From the NCBI GenBank assembly GCA_047602405.1, contig JASGHJ010000001.1, positions 1,504,001 to 1,568,000 on the forward strand: a stretch of 64,000 bases of DNA, read 5' to 3'. Shown here one piece after another: positions 4,989-35,686 of this stretch. The stretch's first letter is position 1, and each line of letters begins with the position of its first letter. A program made the translations under genes and the position numbers. Source of the stretch: Anaeromyxobacteraceae bacterium. GTDB lineage: Bacteria > Myxococcota > Myxococcia > Myxococcales > Anaeromyxobacteraceae. The notes beneath the pieces were generated by a model. The model worked only from the letters and a program-made list of their open reading frames with translations, made no database searches and had not been told where the DNA came from.

Positions 4989-6181
4989 TCGTGGTCACTC
5001 GAAAGCGCGATCTCTCCTGGCTGCGCAGCCTCGAGTCGTGGCGGCGCATGGCGCTCGTGACGGCCGGCATCGCCGCGGCGAGCGTCGTCTACGTCCTCGT
5101 GGCGCCCCGGTGGTACCAGGTCCAGGCCACGCTCGTGCCCGCGCGGTCGCAGCGTTCCGGAGGTTCGGGGATCGCGAGTCTCCTCGGCGGTGACCTCGCC
5201 AGCCTCGCCGGAGGGCTGGAGGCCGCGACCGGGGGAGGAGCGGACGTCCAGCGCATCGCCGCGGTGCTGAAGAGCGACACCGTCACCGACGCCGTCATCG
5301 GGAAGTTCGCGCTCAAGGAGCGCTACAGCGCGAAGTACCTGGAGTCGGCGCGCGAGGTCCTGTGGCGGCGGTGCGGCGTGAAGACCCTGCCGAAGCCCGG
5401 CCTCGTGCAGATCGCCTGCGAGGACAAAGATCCGCAGTTCGTCAAGCAGATGGTCGAGTTCTTCGTCGAGAAGGGTAACGAGGTCTTCAGCCGCGTCAAC
5501 GTCAGCTCCGCGACCGAAGAGGCCCGTTTCCTCGAGCGGCGCGTCACGGACCTGCGCAAGCAGGCGGCGGACTCGGCGCAGGCGATGCGTGAGTTTCAGG
5601 AGAAGTACAAGATCGTCGACCTCGAGACGCAGACCCGGGCGGTGGTGTCCGCGGTCGCAGGGCTGCAGACGCAGCGGATCAACCGGCAGCTCGAGCTCGA
5701 CTTCGCCCGCAGGTTTGCGTCCGCGGACGAGTCGACGTTGCGACAGCTGCGCTCCCAGATCGCGGTCGTCGACGGCCAGCTGGCCGAGCTCCAGGCCGCC
5801 GAGGCGGCGTCCCAGACGACCCCGCGTTCCCTCATGCCCCCGGCCCTCGAGGTTCCGCGCCTCCGCGAACAGTTTGAATCGCTCTATCGCGACCGGAAGG
5901 TCTCGGAGGCGACGCTGGTGTTCGCGCTCGAGCGGCTGGAGAGCGCCAAGGCCAACGAAGCCCGCGACGTCTCCACGTTCATGGTGCTCGATCCGCCCGC
6001 GCTACCGGACCGGCACAGCCGACCGAAGCGCACCCTCACGGTGGTCGGGATGACCGTGCTGGGGGGGCTCATCGCCTTCGCGTGGGAATGGCGCCGCCGC
6101 GGCGGGCTGCGCCTCGCGCCACTCGTCGATGCGCTGATAGGGCCGCCCGCCTCGGCGGACCAGCCGCCCCGTTCGTCCTAG
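4985..6181 (+). CDS. Polysaccharide co-polymerase / chain-length determinant (Wzz/GumC-like, no kinase domain)
   Basis: Two TM helices flanking a coiled-coil periplasmic region, VLDPPALPDRHSRPKR motif before TM2, GTGA overlap with the upstream export gene. Confidence 0.8.
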   Translation: MIVVTRKRDLSWLRSLESWRRMALVTAGIAAASVVYVLVAPRWYQVQATLVPARSQRSGGSGIASLLGGDLASLAGGLEAATGGGADVQRIAAVLKSDTVTDAVIGKFALKERYSAKYLESAREVLWRRCGVKTLPKPGLVQIACEDKDPQFVKQMVEFFVEKGNEVFSRVNVSSATEEARFLERRVTDLRKQAADSAQAMREFQEKYKIVDLETQTRAVVSAVAGLQTQRINRQLELDFARRFASADESTLRQLRSQIAVVDGQLAELQAAEAASQTTPRSLMPPALEVPRLREQFESLYRDRKVSEATLVFALERLESAKANEARDVSTFMVLDPPALPDRHSRPKRTLTVVGMTVLGGLIAFAWEWRRRGGLRLAPLVDALIGPPASADQPPRSS

Positions 6182-29476: not shown

Positions 29477-32141
29477 GTGAGGAAGGACCTCGCCGCGCTG
29501 CTGGCGGAGGAGGGGACCCTGCCGGCGGAGGTGCTGGAGCGCGCGGTCCTGCGCCAGCGCGACGTCGGCGGCGCCCTCGACACCGCGCTCCTGGAGCTCG
29601 GGGCCCTCGACGAGGAGCGCCTCGTCGGGCTCCTGTCGCGCGCGTCCGGGCTGCCGGCCGCGCCCCCCGAGGCGTGGGCCGAGACCGACGCGCGCGCGCG
29701 CCGGGTCTTCCCGTCGCGGGTCGCCGAGCGCCACGGGCTCGCGCCGTTCCGGCTCGACGGCCGCGAGCTCCGGCTCGCCGCCACGCACCCGGTCGACCTC
29801 GCCATCCTCGACGAGCTCAGCTTCATGCTGTCGCTCCACCTCACCGCCCACGTCGGGCCCGAGTGGCGGGTGCGCCAGCTCATCCACCGGCTCTACGGCG
29901 GCGCGCTGCCGCCGCGCTTCGCCGCGCTCGCGAACGGCGGGCCGCCGGTGCCGCCGCTCCCCGCGCCGGCCGTGACGCCCGGGTCGCGGCAGGCCGGCTC
30001 GCGACAGGCGCAGCAGGCCGTCGCGGCGCCCGCCGAGCTCCTCGAGGGCCTCGACATCGAGGACGTGCTCGTCCCCGGACCCGAGGGTGACGCCGACGCC
30101 GCGCCCGGAGCAGGCCCTGAAGCAGGGCCCGCGGCCGGTGCGGACGCGGCCGAGGCGTTTCCCGGTGCCGCGGACCCGGGCGACGGCTTCGGTGCGCCCG
30201 AGCCCGCGGCGCTCACCGACGCGCGGAGCCACGAGCCGCCGCCGCTCCCGGCCGTCTTCGAGGACGGCGAGGAGGATCCCCTCGCCGCCGCGCTCGAGCA
30301 GGCGGTCGAGGCGGTCGAGCTCGGGTTCCTGGACGAGGTCGAGGTCGACGAGCAAACCGCCGACGAGGGGCACGCCGCGGCGGAGGAGCACGCCTCCCGC
30401 GCCTCGGAGCCGGAGCCCGCGCCGGAGGAGCTCGACCGGAGCGCGCCGCCGCGCTGGTCGCTCGGCGAGGCGCGCGCCGCGCTCGACGCCGCCCGCCACC
30501 GCGACGGGGTGGTGCTCGCGGCGCTCCGCTACACCCGCGACTTCTTCCAGTTCGCCGCGCTCTTCGCGGTGGCGCGGGACGCCTTCGCCGGGCACGACGC
30601 GCTCGGCGAGGAGGAGGGCGCGCGCGAGAATCGTCCGCACCGTCGCGCTGTATGCGAGCGAGCCCGGCGTCCTGCGCACCGTGATGGAGACCGGTGGGCC
30701 GTACCTCGGCCCGGTCACCCGCGAGCCCGGCACCGACGCCGTGCTGCGGGGGCTCGCCCGGCCGATGCCGCGCACCGTGTTCGTGTTCCCGGTGCTCGTC
30801 CGCGGCCGGATCGTCTGCCTCGTGTACGCCGACAACGGCGAGGCGCCGGTCTCGGCGCGCCGCCTGGGCGACCTTCTCACGATGCTGTCGGGCGTCGGCG
30901 GCGCCTTCGAGCGCGTGCTGCTCGCGCAGAAGAAGCGCGGCGCGGCGGAGGAGCCCGAGCAGCCCGAGACCTGGCGCACGCGCGAGCCCGCGAGGCTGCC
31001 GCAGCCGGACCCGGCCATCCTGGGCGGGGCCGAGGAAGTCCTGGCCGTCGCGACGCCCGAGGCAACGCCGGAGCCTGCCCCCGAGCCCATCCCCGAGCCC
31101 GCCGCGGCCCCGGCGTGGGAGGAGCCACCCACGGGCGAGATGCCGCTCGCCGCGCAGGAGCCCGCCGAGCCGCCGCTCGAGCTCGAGCCGGCGGCGCCCC
31201 TCGCCGGCGCCGATCCGGAGGCCGCCAGCTTCGCCGACGTCGCCGGTGACGCAGCCGCGGAGGCTGCAGCCGCTGCCGAGGCCGCCGCCGCCGCGGAGGC
31301 TGCCGCTGCCGCCGAGGCCGCCGCCGAGGCCGCCCAGCTCGAGCGCGCCACCGCCGAGGCGCTCGCCGCGGTCGAGGCTGCGCGGGCGCCGGAGGGACTC
31401 CCGCCGCGCCCGCGGCCCGCCGAGCCGCCCGTCCGCCCGCAGCCCACGACGCTCGTCGGCGTGCCCGCGGCGGTGGCTCCGGCCGCCGCGGCTCCCGTGC
31501 CCGTCGCGCCTCCCGCCCCGGAGCCCTCCGGCTCCCCCGACGTCGAGGTCACCTTCGTCGAGGCGCCGGACACCACCGACGAGGTCGCGCTTCCGCCGCC
31601 GGAGGAGACGCTCGGCTCGCTCGCCGACAAGGCGTTCTCGACCGACCCCGCCGTCGCGTCCGCCGCGGTCGCCCACCTGGCCGCGCGCCGCCACGAGCGC
31701 GGACTGCGGGACGCCACCGACCGGCTCCGCCGCGGGCTCCTCTCCGGGCTGTCGCTCCGCACCGCCTCCGCCGCGCGCGCGCTCGCGGCGCTCCGGGACG
31801 TCGAGGCCGTGCCGCTCATGGTGCAGGTGCTCGAGAATGCCGACCCGCAGGCCGCCGACGCCGTCGCGGCCGCGCTCCGGGCCATCACGATGCAGCCGCT
31901 CGGGAAGGATCCGATGCGCTGGCTGCTGTGGTGGAAGGAGAACCGCGGGCGGGGCCGTGCGGAGTGGCTCTTCGGCGCCCTCACGCACCCGCTTAAGGAG
32001 ATCCGGCTCGCCGCGTACGCGGAGCTGTCGGAGACCGCGCCGCCGCCGAGCGGGTACGACGCGGACTGGGACCTGCCGCGCCTGCAGCAGGCGACCGCGG
32101 ACTGGGCGGCGTGGTGGGCGAGGTCGGGCCTCGTGATCTAA
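29477..32141 (+). CDS. GspE/PilB N-terminal (MshEN-like) domain + HEAT-repeat protein (FrgA-like), +1 frameshift at ~30629
   Basis: N-terminal LDTALLELG / VAERHGLAPF domain; removing one A from GAGAATC joins two ORF frames (ARE-IVRTVALY); C-terminal HEAT-like repeats with WWKENRG. Start could be TTG 29441. Confidence 0.6.
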
Positions 32142-34075
32142 GAGCTGTCCCATAATTCGCCAAGCGGCGAGTGGGGCAGTCCGGTTCGCCATCGGGCCCG
32201 CTCGGACGTGGACTCTCGTGAGAGAGGCTCATCCCGGGTAGGGCCCGTGGCCGTTCCGGCGGTTCGCCGAGCCACCGGCGAAGAGGCCGGTGTGGACGTC
32301 CGCCACGCGGGGCAACTGGCCTCGCGGACGAAGAGGTCGTTTGACTCGGACCGGGTGTCTTGCCACCCGAGCGGCAGGTAGGGAGTGAGGAGGCGCTGGA
32401 GGTCGGGGCGGGACTCGCGCGCGGCGGCGTAGTCGACGCGCGCCGAAGCGGGTTCGCCGGGGAGGTCGAGCACGACGAAGCTCGCGAGCACCGCGGAGAC
32501 GGCGTCGCGGTCACCTTCGAGGCCGCAGCGCGGACAGCGGTGGACCCGGACGGCGAGGGTCTTCGGTACGCGGGCGCCACAGGGGCAGCGCTGGGAGAGC
32601 GTGGTCGTGCGGGTGGGGATCCGGACCACGCCTCCTCTGGCCTTGGCGACGGCTGCGACGGCCCGGGCCTCGCGGTCGATGGCCGAGACGAGCAGGCCCG
32701 GCGTGAAAGCGGCGACGCCGCGGCCCCAGTGTCGCGCCCAGGCGGAGATGGGGCCTTCCTCGACGAAGACCTTGTAGCCGTGCGTGCGGACGACCTCCGC
32801 GGCCACCCGCCGGGCACCGTCGCGCCGAGCCTGTGCAGCAGCGGCGGCGTCAGCGACCTCTTCCGCCCGGAGCCTCCGGTGACGACGGGTGAGCCGGTCG
32901 CCGCGGTAGGCCTGGAGCGGAGCGCCATCGGACCTCGCGACCCTCGGCCCCTGGGGGATGACCTCCACGGGCGGGAGGCCCGCGGCGGCGCGCCGACGGG
33001 CGCGCTTCTCCTGCCGCTTGGACAGCCGGTACTGCTCGCTGTTGGCGACCCGGCGGGAGCGCTCCAGGGCTCGCTGCCTGCGACGCTCGCGGCGTCCCCG
33101 GCCACGGTCCCGCTCCTTCGTGGCCGCGTCGCGCTCGATCCGCGTGAGCCGAAGATCGCCTCCCGCCACCTGGGAGGCGACGGTCAGGTTCGACACGTTG
33201 ACATCCACTCCAGCCACGCGGCCGGGCTCGGCGAGGGCGACCTCCGCGCGGCGCGCCCTCGTCGCAGGGGAGACGTAGGGCTCCTTCAGCACCATCAGGT
33301 GGGCTTCGTAGCGCCAGCCGCCAGGTACGTGTGGCGCTCGGGTGCGGACGACATCGACCTTGTGCCAGAGGCTCGGGTCGGCGAGGTGGTAGTCGAGGAT
33401 GGGTTGGTTGCAGGGAGCCGTGGGGAGTCGAACCGGAAGCACCAGCGTGCCGTCGGCGAGCCCGCTGAACACGAGCACCAGCGGACCCTGGTAGGCCCAC
33501 CAGTCGACGCGCCCGCTCGGAGCCGACGCGACCTCACGACGACCGACGAGCGAGCCGTGGAGCCGGAAGGTCTCCCACTTCCGATCCTTCGTATGCGAGC
33601 GCGCGCGACCGGGCAGCCTCCTGAAGTCGAACCACCGCCCGACGTGGAGCAGCCCCTGGCGTTTCCCGGTCGCGTCCGGAAACAGGTGCCGCTCCACCGC
33701 CGACCAGACCGAATCGGCGAGGTGCATCGCGAGCGCCTTCGTGACGAAACGCCGGAGGTAAGGCGCCGCGTCGAGGCAGGCGTAGGCGGCGTGTTCGAGC
33801 GCGTCGCGGCTGAGGCCGAGCCGGTCGCGCGTGCCCGCGCCATCCCGGGCCCGTTCGTGCCTCGCCGCCCAGTAGGCCCGCGCACGGTTGCGGGCCGCCC
33901 GCTGCAACGCCCGCCGCACCCGGTACGCGTCGGCGAACATCCTCTCGAGCCGCCTGCGCTGCAGGGGATCGTGGACGTCGAGCGCGAGCCGCAGGACCGA
34001 CACGCCGTCCTCCGGGCGGCGCGCCCAGGGCTCCTGGCGGTTCGGACCGCGGGTCCGCTTGGCCTCGACTTCCAC
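32138..34075 (-). CDS. tnpB: Large TnpB/Cas12-like RuvC nuclease (645 aa)
   Basis: RuvC-I VAGVDVN, Arg-rich bridge helix, RuvC-II VFVEEG, zinc finger SQRCPCG...HRCPRCG, RuvC-III DRDAVSA. Confidence 0.82.
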   Translation of the reverse strand: MEVEAKRTRGPNRQEPWARRPEDGVSVLRLALDVHDPLQRRRLERMFADAYRVRRALQRAARNRARAYWAARHERARDGAGTRDRLGLSRDALEHAAYACLDAAPYLRRFVTKALAMHLADSVWSAVERHLFPDATGKRQGLLHVGRWFDFRRLPGRARSHTKDRKWETFRLHGSLVGRREVASAPSGRVDWWAYQGPLVLVFSGLADGTLVLPVRLPTAPCNQPILDYHLADPSLWHKVDVVRTRAPHVPGGWRYEAHLMVLKEPYVSPATRARRAEVALAEPGRVAGVDVNVSNLTVASQVAGGDLRLTRIERDAATKERDRGRGRRERRRQRALERSRRVANSEQYRLSKRQEKRARRRAAAGLPPVEVIPQGPRVARSDGAPLQAYRGDRLTRRHRRLRAEEVADAAAAAQARRDGARRVAAEVVRTHGYKVFVEEGPISAWARHWGRGVAAFTPGLLVSAIDREARAVAAVAKARGGVVRIPTRTTTLSQRCPCGARVPKTLAVRVHRCPRCGLEGDRDAVSAVLASFVVLDLPGEPASARVDYAAARESRPDLQRLLTPYLPLGWQDTRSESNDLFVREASCPAWRTSTPASSPVARRTAGTATGPTRDEPLSRESTSERARWRTGLPHSPLGELWDSS

Positions 34076-34338
34076 ATCTTCACGCTACGCCAACCCCCTG
34101 ACAGGGCGTTCAGGTCCGGCCCTCGCGTGAACCGGGGCAACGCCCGAGATTTCACGATCCAGTAACCACGCATCCCCTGCCGACCCGCCGACTGCTCGTC
34201 CTCGCGGCCCTCTCCGGGCGCGACCTCGCTCGCTTCCGGCGCATGCTTCCCTCATCGCCGACGCGGCCGCCACCTCGCGGACACCGTGCCGCTGTCTCCG
34301 TCCCTCACAAGCTCAAGCGGGACTTATGGGACAGCTCT
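32141..34338 (-). mobile_element. Non-autonomous TIR-bounded element carrying a tnpB-like gene
   Basis: Perfect 15-bp TIR AGAGCTGTCCCATAA (32141-32155) / TTATGGGACAGCTCT (34324-34338); TA on both flanks reconstructing a CTAG empty site; no transposase inside. Confidence 0.8.
34082..34103 (-). promoter_or_regulatory. TGTCAG-N10-TA-N3-T promoter motif (PafBC/RecA-NDp-like)
   Basis: Minus strand TGTCAG GGGGTTGGCG TAGCGT, ending 6 nt before the tnpB GTG. Confidence 0.55.
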
Positions 34339-35221
34339 TAGGCGTGGGGGCCTTCCTTCGCCGCGGCGACCTCCCGCCAGCCGAGGATCCAGGTCAGCCT
34401 GTCCGGCGCGGAGCCGTAGACCCAGCCCCTCGTCTCCGCCGCCGCTAGGCGGCGGCTACGCTCGGGGCGTACGGACCCAGGGAATCCATCTCCGACCATC
34501 CCGAGCGTAGGCCCGCGGCAGCGGGCCGGAGTCGAGGGACGCCGACGCGTGAGCAGCCGGCCACCGTGCACTCGCCGCCGTCACGCACCATGATCGGGTG
34601 CGCGTTCTTCAGCTTCTCGTGCACGATCGGCGTCCAGACCTTCAGGCAGTGCCGCGCGATGGCCTCGATCGCGTCCGGGAGCGGGATCCACTGCCCCGCC
34701 GCCTTCCGGGCGGCCTGGACGGCCTCCGCGAGGAGGCCGTCGATCTCCTCGGTGACGAAGACGTCGAGGTAGTCCCTGTTCCACATCTGGCTGTGGAGCT
34801 CCGCCATCGTCTCCCGCTGGAGCGTGATGCAGGTCTTCCCGGCGGCCTCCTCGATCTTCGCGGCGACGTCCTCCGCCGTGGCGAGCTTCGAGACCAGCCG
34901 CGCCTGCTCGTAGGAGAGCTTCCCGGAGCGCATCGCCTCGCGGAGCTGCGGGAGCTCCTGGCACTTCTGCTCGAAGCGCACGAGCCGGCGCACGAAGGCG
35001 GCCTTGAGGCCCAGCTTCTCGCGCGCGAAGTCGGTGATCTGCGAGTAGCCGAGCTCGAGCTCGCCGGAGACGTCCATGAGCTCGCCGAGCTTCTGGCCGA
35101 TCGCGAGGTCGAGCGCGCCGCGATCGCGGGCGACGCGCACGGCGAGGGCGTCGAGCGCGACGAAGCCGCCGACGGGCGGGGTTTCGGAGCCGACCTCCGG
35201 ACTGGCGGAGCTCTCGACCAT
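34338..35221 (-). pseudogene. HNH endonuclease (DUF222-like N-terminus) disrupted by a REP-like doublet
   Basis: ELGYSQITDFAREKLG, LPQLREAMRSGKLSYEQARLV, RDGGECTVAGCSR; the repeat follows, and the tail WVYGSAPDRLTW resumes in another frame. No HH...N...HH core. Confidence 0.7.
34427..34540. repeat. REP/REPIN-like inverted doublet
   Basis: Two inverted units CCCTCGWCTCC-hairpin-CTACGCTCGGG; same family as 49940-50066. Confidence 0.8.
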
Positions 35222-35316
35222 GCTGCACGGGTGTACAGCGCGGGTCTGACATTTTCGTTGGGGCGCAGCGACAACCCCATCTGGGACCCCGCCCGGCACT
35301 CACGGGCGCCGCCGGC

Positions 35317-35402
35317 TCACCCTCGCGCAGGCCCCTGCAGCCTGAGCACGTTCCCATCGAGGTCGGCGACGTACAGCTCCCGGACGCCCCAGGTCTGGTC
35401 CG
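35317..35402 (-). pseudogene. C-terminal fragment of a VOC/glyoxalase-bleomycin resistance protein
   Basis: PDQTWGVRELYVADLDGNVLRL motif with no recognisable N-terminal half. Confidence 0.55.
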
Positions 35403-35447
35403 GCCGCGGTCCGCCGCCACCCGCCGCCACCCATCCGGCGACCGCCC

Positions 35448-35463
35448 CGGCACGCTGGCTGCA
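35448..35463 (+). promoter_or_regulatory. Putative sigma54 promoter
   Basis: CGGCACGCTGGCTGCA, GG-N10-GC with GGCACG core. Confidence 0.45.
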
Positions 35464-35476
35464 CTTCGATGGCCCC

Positions 35477-35686
35477 ATGCTCGCACTCGCCGCCGACTCG
35501 CTCGCCATGCTCGGGGTCATCGCCGCCATCGCCGCGTCGTGGGCCGGCGCCATCGCGCTCGTCGCGCTCGCATATGCCTCCGCCACGACGGGCCTTCGCG
35601 TCGCGGTCGCGCGCGTGCGCCGGCCGCGGCTCGCGCGCGAGGCCGCTGCGTGGACCGCCGCGCCGGGCCTCGCCGCGGCGAAGTGA
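35477..35686 (+). CDS. Small hydrophobic (membrane) protein, 69 aa
   Basis: MLALAADSLAMLGVIAAIAASWAGAIALVALAY...; high GC3; directly after the sigma54-like motif. Confidence 0.5.
   Translation: MLALAADSLAMLGVIAAIAASWAGAIALVALAYASATTGLRVAVARVRRPRLAREAAAWTAAPGLAAAK

What the first reader, a model, noticed from the sequence alone, without database searches (positions are those of the whole stretch)
32138..34341. Transposase-free element with DDE-type ends (15-bp TIRs, TA duplication in CTAG) carrying only a large, intact TnpB/Cas12-like nuclease
Seen: AGAGCTGTCCCATAA at 32141-32155 and its exact reverse complement at 34324-34338, each flanked by TA, so the empty site reads ...ATCTAGGCG.... The only long coding-like ORF inside is 645 aa with RuvC-I D (VAGVDVN), RuvC-II E (VFVEEG), a CxC/CxxC zinc finger and RuvC-III D (DRD). 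It reads through the TIR and takes its TAG stop from the target site. Known: canonical TnpB (about 400 aa) travels in IS200/IS605 or IS607 elements, which lack TIRs and make no target duplication. TIRs plus TA/CTAG targets are typical of DDE elements of the IS5 and IS630 families, and TIR-bounded hosts are common for eukaryotic Fanzors. Inference: an RNA-guided nuclease carried by a non-autonomous DDE-type element and mobilised in trans. Alternative: a tnpB element nested inside a small TIR MITE.
Basis: partly seen in the sequence, partly recalled or inferred. Interest (0 to 1): 0.9.

Follow-up and report, generated by a model that had tools for sequence, protein, structure and literature searches.

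The report
IS5 transposon carrying RNA-guided TnpB nuclease
This 2.2-kb element is a transposase-deleted copy of an IS5-family cut-and-paste transposon that carries a large TnpB-like nuclease and a conserved folded RNA sequence ending at the duplicated target bases, and the nuclease likely uses that RNA to cut the empty CTAG site so that the element would be copied back; the pairing is already catalogued, but my searches found no experimental test of it.

Summary
Observation confirmed. The element has exact 15-bp TIRs, a TA duplication (a same-genus genome holds the empty CTAG site) and an intact 645-aa TnpB-fold ORF that stops on the target's TAG.

It is not transposase-free by origin. The genome holds six near-full copies; two encode an intact IS1373-like IS5 DDE transposase divergent from the nuclease. 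This copy keeps that gene's two ends around a ~580-bp deletion.

The last ~232 nt show a covarying ωRNA-like fold whose predicted pseudoknot pairs with the last TIR bases plus the T of the duplicated TA. All 126 relatives' 3' ends found read TTAG, none CTAG. By the ISDra2 register this predicts a CTAG TAM, with the filled site spared by one base. Cleavage, expression and homing are inferred, not shown.

DDE-associated TnpB with TIRs and solo copies moved in trans is in print (Altae-Tran 2023), and this scan noted an IS5-type case on another genome (e1-9851431). The value lies in a precise, testable mechanism for a pairing that a 2026 review lists as needing characterisation.

The parts
32138..32140 (.). 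Target C plus duplicated TA at the nuclease 3' end; read on the - strand as TAG, it is the nuclease stop and the predicted last three bases of the ωRNA scaffold
   Evidence: single CTAG in the empty orthologous site
32141..32155 (+). Terminal inverted repeat at the ωRNA end; on the - strand its GGGACAG is predicted to form the last stem and its TCT to join the pseudoknot
34324..34338 (-). Terminal inverted repeat at the transposase end, exact complement of 32141-32155; similar to the end of IS1373
34339..34341 (.). Duplicated TA plus target G; also the TAG stop of the transposase remnant
32138..34075 (-). 645-aa TnpB/Cas12f-fold nuclease: D291 (codon at 33205), E439 (32761), zinc finger C497/C499/C514/C517, D524 (32506). 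Residues ~566-645 are a low-confidence tail overlapping the RNA
32138..32369 (-). Predicted ωRNA scaffold (~232 nt; true 5' end unknown): hairpin 32352-32369 with loop AAGA (32358-32361) pairing with 32140-32143; long-range helix 32344-32351 with 32266-32272; terminal stem 32173-32179 with 32145-32151
   Evidence: no Rfam match
32120..32137 (-). Predicted guide: host flank directly after TAG (length unknown)
   Evidence: conservation ends after TAG; register inferred from ISDra2, PMC10097598
34160..34341 (+). Remnant of the IS1373-like DDE transposase gene (start approximate); ~580 bp deleted between 34256 and 34257, the same junction as in copies B and E
   Evidence: intact in copies C and D
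30087..32141 (+). Host ORF (weak HEAT-like hit, start uncertain) whose TAG stop was the target; it now ends in TAA, so the protein is unchanged

Best explanation
The element is a deletion derivative of a ~2.8-kb IS5-family (IS1373-like) insertion sequence that carries a divergently oriented TnpB-like nuclease gene, is likely moved in trans by intact sister copies, and likely uses the nuclease to cut its own empty CTAG site so that repair would copy the element back. Shown in sequence: the two-gene anatomy, the CTAG target with TA duplication, conserved catalytic residues, and a covarying RNA fold over the last ~232 nt. Inferred: (1) that region is expressed as an ωRNA running into the host flank; (2) its pseudoknot uses the last three TIR bases and the T of the duplicated TA, which by the ISDra2 register puts TAG in the scaffold, starts the guide after it and makes the TAM CTAG (CTA is the runner-up); (3) the filled junction reads TTAG and so would be spared; (4) excision followed by end joining would regenerate a single CTAG, and the nuclease would cut it and force recombination from a filled allele.
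For: Anatomy: six copies, two with an intact transposase (PF13359 E 4e-9, PF01609 E 1e-10). A divergent transposase hit lies next to the nuclease in 73 of 111 related loci with at least 900 nt upstream (43 of 45 metagenomic). Transposase and nuclease distances correlate across 47 loci (Mantel rho 0.64). In 301 same-phylum genomes the transposase matched only in the three genomes that also hold the full-length nuclease. Nuclease: D291 and E439 in 120 of 120 homologues, D524 in 119 of 120; core dN/dS 0.19-0.23 in 6 of 6 pairs; best structural matches ISDra2 TnpB Z 13.2 and ISFba1 TnpB Z 13.0. RNA: 41 pairs, 92.5% of cells paired against 77.0% shuffled and 30-43% slid, 27 pairs with two-sided changes (39 sequences); pseudoknot 97.4% paired; its outer pair is A-U, G-C or C-G, with at least 3 changes of the G-C state forced by well-supported branches; dS is lower in the tail than in the core in 6 of 6 pairs. 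Asymmetry: 126 of 126 3' ends read TTAG, while 13 of 68 5' ends start with G, as do 2 of 5 equivalent ends of nuclease-free IS1373-like elements. Precedents: retention by TnpB (PMC10055086, passages); precise, NHEJ-dependent excision of PIF/Harbinger-type mPing (PMC4561436, abstract); the host has Ku.
Against: No expression, cleavage, excision or homing was shown. The invariant T can be explained by pseudoknot pairing alone; the neighbouring G-C pair is also invariant. Only 1 of 4 pseudoknot pairs shows two-sided change, and 8 of 125 parsed loci do not pair at the outer position (4 A·C in two lineages, 1 G·A, 3 probably mis-parsed). The structure was partly read from the sequences it was scored on, and the loci are related. 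The fold model is mediocre (pLDDT 62.6, pTM 0.48, whole-chain rmsd ~20 Å), and the protein scores far below curated TnpB cut-offs (29 against 100 bits). PMC13565253 (section 20) notes that DDE excision already leaves a break, so the benefit of a nuclease may be small. How IS1373-type elements excise was not established here.
Confidence: 0.65

Rival explanations
1. The nuclease is an active RNA-guided enzyme with the same TAM, but its benefit is not rescue after excision. It would mainly convert or destroy empty alleles on sister, incoming or plasmid DNA (gene drive or competitor killing), while excision breaks are mended by ordinary recombination.
For: PMC13565253 argues that DDE excision already leaves a break resembling the cut state. 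A preprint on TnpB-driven IS gene drive in plasmids exists (PMC11870625, search listing only). Family members occur on plasmids (5 records). Transposase-deleted copies keep an intact nuclease core (A, B, E, F).
Against: Deleted copies can still be excised in trans. The closest mechanistic precedent (PIF/Harbinger-type mPing) excises precisely through end joining, and the host has Ku.
Confidence: 0.2
2. The RNP binds DNA but its main role is regulatory or helps transposition (repression, or steering or protecting the transposase) and not cutting.
For: The protein is ~250 aa longer than typical TnpB, with insertions of unknown role. The two genes are divergent and close together. No homologue was found to have been assayed.
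Against: All three catalytic residues are kept in 119-120 of 120 homologues. Target choice is explained by a fixed CTAG shared with nuclease-free IS1373. The six guides have no CTAG-adjacent match longer than 7 contiguous bases in the genome.
Confidence: 0.1
3. One reading: an ordinary IS605/IS607-type tnpB element nested inside a small TIR MITE.
For: The protein's weak HMM hits are to IS607 and IS200/605 TnpB models.
Against: Conservation and the RNA fold end exactly at the TIR and TAG. Every TIR match in the genome belongs to the six copies or one fragment that still holds nuclease sequence. The outer element is a two-gene IS whose genes co-diverge.
Confidence: 0.02

Closest known systems
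DDE-transposase-associated TnpB branches DDE-1 to DDE-6 (Altae-Tran et al. 2023, PMC10691335); hosts listed as ISL2, IS630 and IS1031 in PMC13565253
   Same: TnpB inside inverted terminal repeats with a DDE transposase; solo copies with near-identical ends inferred to move in trans.
   Different: Only DDE-6 (IS630) is described in the text read. Target, TAM, ωRNA fold and self-protection are not given in the parts I could read. Whether this clade is their ISL2-linked branch could not be checked: Fig. 4 and Additional Files 10-11 are not held.
IS1373 (Streptomyces IS5-family element; placement in the ISL2 subgroup is recalled, not tested)
   Same: Transposase 48% identical over the matched part, HTH_Tnp_4 plus DDE_Tnp_4; ends CTAGAGGTTGTCCCGTA against CTAAGAGCTGTCCCATA here; CTAG target.
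   Different: IS1373 is ~0.85 kb with no nuclease and reads CTAG at both ends. Here a ~2-kb nuclease and RNA cassette sits between the upstream TIR and the transposase start, and that end reads TTAG.
ISDra2 TnpB and ωRNA (IS200/IS605; PDB 8h1j; PMC10097598)
   Same: Fold (Z 13.2, rmsd 20.2 Å over 331 residues); canonical RuvC-II E ~58 residues before the zinc finger; RNA overlapping the ORF tail; loop-to-3'-end pseudoknot.
   Different: 645 aa against ~408; scaffold ~232 nt against a 116-nt core; TIRs and a TA duplication in place of Y1 hairpin ends; the predicted scaffold includes target-derived bases.
Fanzor1 and Fanzor2* in eukaryotic TIR transposons (PMC10711439)
   Same: TIR and TSD built into the guide scaffold; Fanzor2* is predicted to keep the pseudoknot.
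   Different: Bacterial, with canonical E placement and DVN in place of DPG, so not of the pro-Fanzor type; likely a convergent solution. Fanzor1 lost the pseudoknot, while this family appears to keep it.

Membership tests
TnpB / OMEGA nuclease | RuvC D-E-D triad and C4 zinc finger | tested here: met
   D291, E439 120/120; D524 119/120; four cysteines 119-120/120. RuvC-II to RuvC-III aligns to ISFba1 TnpB, E 4e-6.
TnpB / OMEGA nuclease | TnpB/Cas12f fold | tested here: met
   Foldseek top hits Cas12f and TnpB, E 2e-10 to 5e-9. VIA-align Z 13.2 (8h1j, rmsd 20 Å); N-lobe 3.7 Å over 183 residues; RuvC 3.9 Å over 139. Model pLDDT 62.6.
TnpB / OMEGA nuclease | Structured RNA at the element's 3' end with a pseudoknot next to a variable guide | tested here: met
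   Covariation; conservation stops after TAG. Predicted, not observed as RNA.
TnpB / OMEGA nuclease | Score above curated TnpB family cut-offs | tested here: not met
   NF040570 29.4 against 100; NF038280 27.1 against 350; NF038281 15.1 against 425. Only PF07282 passes.
TnpB / OMEGA nuclease | RNA-guided, TAM-dependent DNA cleavage | not testable with these tools
   Needs a TAM screen or in vitro assay.
IS5 family (IS1373-like) | Short HTH plus DDE transposase | tested here: met
   Copies C and D intact; PF01609 and PF13359 above cut-off. Best NCBIfam hit NF033581 IS5, 47.6 bits, below its 140 cut-off. The window copy is deleted.
IS5 family (IS1373-like) | TIRs and a short duplication in a fixed target | tested here: met
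   6 of 6 copies in C-TA...TA-G; C before TA in 69 of 70 5' ends; empty allele; IS1373-like ends.
IS5 family (IS1373-like) | Placement in the ISL2 subgroup | not tested
   Recalled for IS1373; one search gave no source that I read.
DDE-associated TnpB (Altae-Tran DDE-1 to DDE-6) | Adjacent DDE transposase, ITRs, solo copies with the same ends | tested here: met
DDE-associated TnpB (Altae-Tran DDE-1 to DDE-6) | Falls within one of the named branches | not testable with these tools
   Figure 4, Tables S1-S2 and Additional Files are not held; only the SI text was searched.
IS200/IS605 and IS607 elements | Y1 or serine TnpA, no TIRs, no duplication | tested here: not met
   TIRs, TA duplication and a DDE partner.
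Fanzor / pro-Fanzor | DPG in RuvC-I and E six residues before the zinc finger | tested here: not met
   DVN; E439 lies 58 residues before C497; signatures.
CRISPR-Cas12 | Adjacent CRISPR array | tested here: not met
   No array among the repeats listed for window 31000-35500; related loci were not screened.

The most novel reading that the evidence does not exclude
A bacterial TnpB lineage independent of Fanzor has become tied to the CTAG tetramer and not to one transposase. Its guide scaffold is finished by the host's duplicated bases, its TAM is the whole CTAG target, and one TIR base (C to T) gives self-immunity. It has moved between two IS5 subgroups that both insert at CTAG: IS1373-like in Myxococcota and some Actinomycetota, and DUF4096/DDE_Tnp_1_2-type in Dactylosporangium. 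It would be a first worked case of homing by a prokaryotic cut-and-paste element, viable because IS5/Harbinger-type excision is precise.
Probability: 0.35. Interest if true: 0.75.

Novelty: new member of a known kind. Interest (0 to 1): 0.5.

Why it matters
Why RNA-guided nucleases rarely ride DDE transposons in prokaryotes, but often do in eukaryotes, is posed as open in PMC13565253 and PMC10711439, and the review asks for mechanistic work on OMEGA systems outside IS200/IS605 and IS607. This family gives a complete, recently mobile bacterial test case with sharp predictions: TAM CTAG, guide starting after TAG, a pseudoknot that needs a target-derived U, and one-base self-protection. It also supplies over 1,100 homologues (1,136 hits among 8,000 candidates scored) of a large TnpB with a predicted GC-balanced TAM, mostly annotated as hypothetical protein or transposase. 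The pairing itself is not new.

Tried and rejected
Rfam gave no match at E<=1. Single-sequence folding was weak (z -2.0) and was not relied on. The PDB sequence search with the close alignment A1 found nothing; the diverse alignment A5 found TnpBs. No relative was found in viral contigs. No RNA holder was listed among sequencing runs, all with small word shares, and none was laid; this says nothing on expression. The promoter and terminator scan found 0 sites. No empty allele of any of the six copies exists within the genome itself. The generic inverted-repeat finder gave many chance pairs and was replaced by motif-anchored searches. The G after TA is fixed by construction but was free, where it was still G. 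Of the 70 5' ends, two C-start hits are probably false and were left out of the 13-of-68 count, and one G-start (L059) belongs to a neighbouring IS, so 12 of 67 is the stricter figure. The Fisher p of 5e-7 overstates, because loci are related; 120 of 126 right flanks are distinct. IS630 membership was rejected (E 0.06). The outgroup of the nuclease was not found: only the top 150 of 894 hits were listed. The tree used 75 rows: the non-A-U loci plus 40 A-U loci drawn at random. Literature searches showed no experimental study of an IS5-borne TnpB; the library lacks most subscription papers.
Full report
Observation. The 15-bp repeat at 32141-32155 and its exact complement at 34324-34338 are present, each flanked by TA, with C outside left and G outside right. 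The ORF 32138-34075 (-) is 645 aa, has the quoted motifs and stops on the target-derived TAG. A same-genus genome (G010) has the orthologous site empty, with a single CTAG followed by homologous right flank, which confirms a TA duplication. The target was the stop codon of the upstream host gene, whose protein is unchanged. CTAG is rare in this genome (1,073 sites, 0.23 of expectation).

What the element is. The genome holds six near-full copies and one 3' fragment; 6 of 6 sit in C-TA...TA-G. Copies C (2,792 bp) and D encode an intact ~240-260-aa transposase divergent from the nuclease, also ending through its TIR. It hits DDE_Tnp_1 and DDE_Tnp_4 above cut-off, and its best NCBIfam model is IS5, below cut-off. 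Its nearest nuclease-free relatives on plasmids are Streptomyces IS5 transposases, some annotated IS1373 (48% over the matched part), whose ends read CTAGAGGTTGTCCCGTA. The window copy, B (2 differences from it) and E (91%) share one ~580-bp deletion inside the transposase gene. That the same deleted form sits at three different CTAG sites implies movement in trans (inference).

The family. The protein search gave 1,136 hits among 8,000 candidates scored; the nearest named ones are from Anaeromyxobacter. I fetched 160 loci, named ones mostly Myxococcota and Micromonosporaceae. A divergent IS1373-like transposase lies next to the nuclease in 73 of 111 loci with at least 900 nt upstream (43 of 45 metagenomic, 30 of 66 GTDB); most GTDB misses are Micromonosporaceae loci. 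Both ends were called in 50 loci, mostly 2.7-2.8 kb apart. The same layout occurs on 3 of 4 actinobacterial plasmid loci examined. Gene distances correlate over 47 loci (rho 0.64). In 301 same-phylum genomes the full nuclease and the transposase matched in the same three only. Many Dactylosporangium copies are solo, with different and imperfect TIRs but the same CTAG target. Their ends resemble a neighbouring DUF4096/DDE_Tnp_1_2 IS5 element, and two loci hold divergent broken remnants of that transposase type. A second host transposase is therefore likely, but no intact example was seen.

The nuclease. D291 and E439 are kept in 120 of 120 homologues and D524 in 119. Core dN/dS is 0.19-0.23 in six pairs. 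The model (pLDDT 62.6) matches TnpB and Cas12f best, with lobes misplaced (rmsd ~20 Å) but the N-lobe and RuvC at 3.7-3.9 Å. The E lies 58 residues before the zinc finger and RuvC-I reads DVN, so it is not Fanzor-like (signatures). It falls far below curated TnpB cut-offs. The last ~80 residues are low-confidence, yet 93 of 126 loci keep the frame to the target TAG.

The RNA. From 32369 to the TAG, 39 diverse sequences share a fold: 41 pairs, 92.5% of cells paired against 77.0% shuffled and 30-43% slid, and 27 pairs with two-sided changes. The structure was partly read from these sequences, so the controls lean favourable. Synonymous divergence is lower in the tail than in the core in all six pairs. 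The loop of the first hairpin (AAGA) is complementary to the terminal UCU plus the U of the duplicated TA: 97.4% of 156 cells pair, but only the outer pair covaries. Over 125 parsed loci that pair is A-U 84, G-C 30, C-G 2, G-U 1, and unpaired in 8; well-supported branches force at least three changes of the G-C state. In ISDra2 the canonical pseudoknot pairs are -5 to -3, with a looser pair at -6 (PMC10097598, passages). The same register here makes TAG positions -3 to -1, so the guide would start after TAG and the TAM would be CTAG; flanks show no strong bias beyond the C. IS607 TnpB and Fanzors likewise absorb fixed flanking bases (PMC10711439, sections 25-26 and passages).

Self-protection. 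All 126 3' ends found read TTAG (34 of 160 loci gave no end, mostly through truncation), whereas 13 of 68 5' ends start with G (12 of 67 without one misassigned end), as do 2 of 5 equivalent ends readable in 8 nuclease-free IS1373-like loci. C or T would be synonymous in the protein. A CTAG TAM would be absent at the filled junction. The pseudoknot alone could also fix this base, so the two causes are not separated. Two single cases fit self-avoidance: L021 has G in the loop yet keeps T, and the one own-genome 3' end reading CTAG is a fragment that has lost almost all of the nuclease.

Mechanism. Shown: anatomy, target, conservation, covariation. Inferred: expression, cleavage, TAM, excision to a single CTAG and recombinational restoration. 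TnpB-driven retention is established for IS200/IS605 (PMC10055086, passages). Precise end-joined excision is reported for mPing (PMC4561436, abstract); its kinship to this IS5 group is recalled, not tested. The host has Ku. Against this, DDE excision may already leave a recombinogenic break (PMC13565253, section 20), which keeps the gene-drive rival alive.

Novelty. PMC10691335 (passages, sections 5 and 9, SI text search) reports six DDE-associated TnpB branches, all with ITRs, and solo copies moved in trans. PMC13565253 names ISL2, IS630 and IS1031 hosts. Figure 4 and the additional files, which could show this very clade, were not available. Searches showed no experimental study and no account of the TAM or pseudoknot for an IS5-borne TnpB. 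This scan noted an IS5-type case on another genome (e1-9851431), seen after my analysis and not counted as support. Verdict: a real and well-formed system of a catalogued but apparently untested kind, with sharp predictions; interest 0.5.

Noticed in passing
G000:C2:797490-801975 (L003, copy D): A 1,684-bp second IS with a ~447-aa DDE-looking frame is nested between the transposase and nuclease starts, flanked by a short direct repeat; another copy lies at C1:661275-662958. Copy D's nuclease is frameshifted near residue 470.
   Followed up: partly
window 34350-35299: The right flank belongs to a repeated gene family (ORF 34445-35299, no Pfam hit) with paralogues at C1:366556, C1:1362059 and C2:819621, also present beside the empty site in G010, where an HNH-like motif is visible; possibly another mobile repeat.
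   Followed up: no
L013:3232-3244 and 5459-5472: No 5' TIR was found; CTAG plus the first 9 predicted guide bases recur 270 nt upstream of the nuclease. It was the only such self-match among 65 GTDB 3' ends checked.
   Followed up: partly
L059:91-1145: A two-frame DUF4096/DDE_Tnp_1_2 IS5 element with CTAG at both ends lies 14 bp from a solo nuclease element and shares 12 bp of end sequence with its 3' end.
   Followed up: partly
G000:C2:2661892-2662052 (L005): A 160-bp 3' fragment of the element whose end reads CTAG, not TTAG, with the ωRNA interior and nearly all of the nuclease deleted.
   Followed up: partly
L182:1714-4498, L184:1149-3981, L185:1382-3924: The same two-gene element on Euzebya, Mycobacteroides and Mycobacterium plasmids, where the nuclease is annotated as 'transposase'.
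   Followed up: yes
P0162, P0165, P0168: Distant full-length family members (29-33% identity) keep the motifs and a long tail; their genomic context could not be fetched.
   Followed up: no
window 31233-31334: 18-bp coding repeats (AAAAAE-type) in the host gene upstream of the insertion.
   Followed up: no
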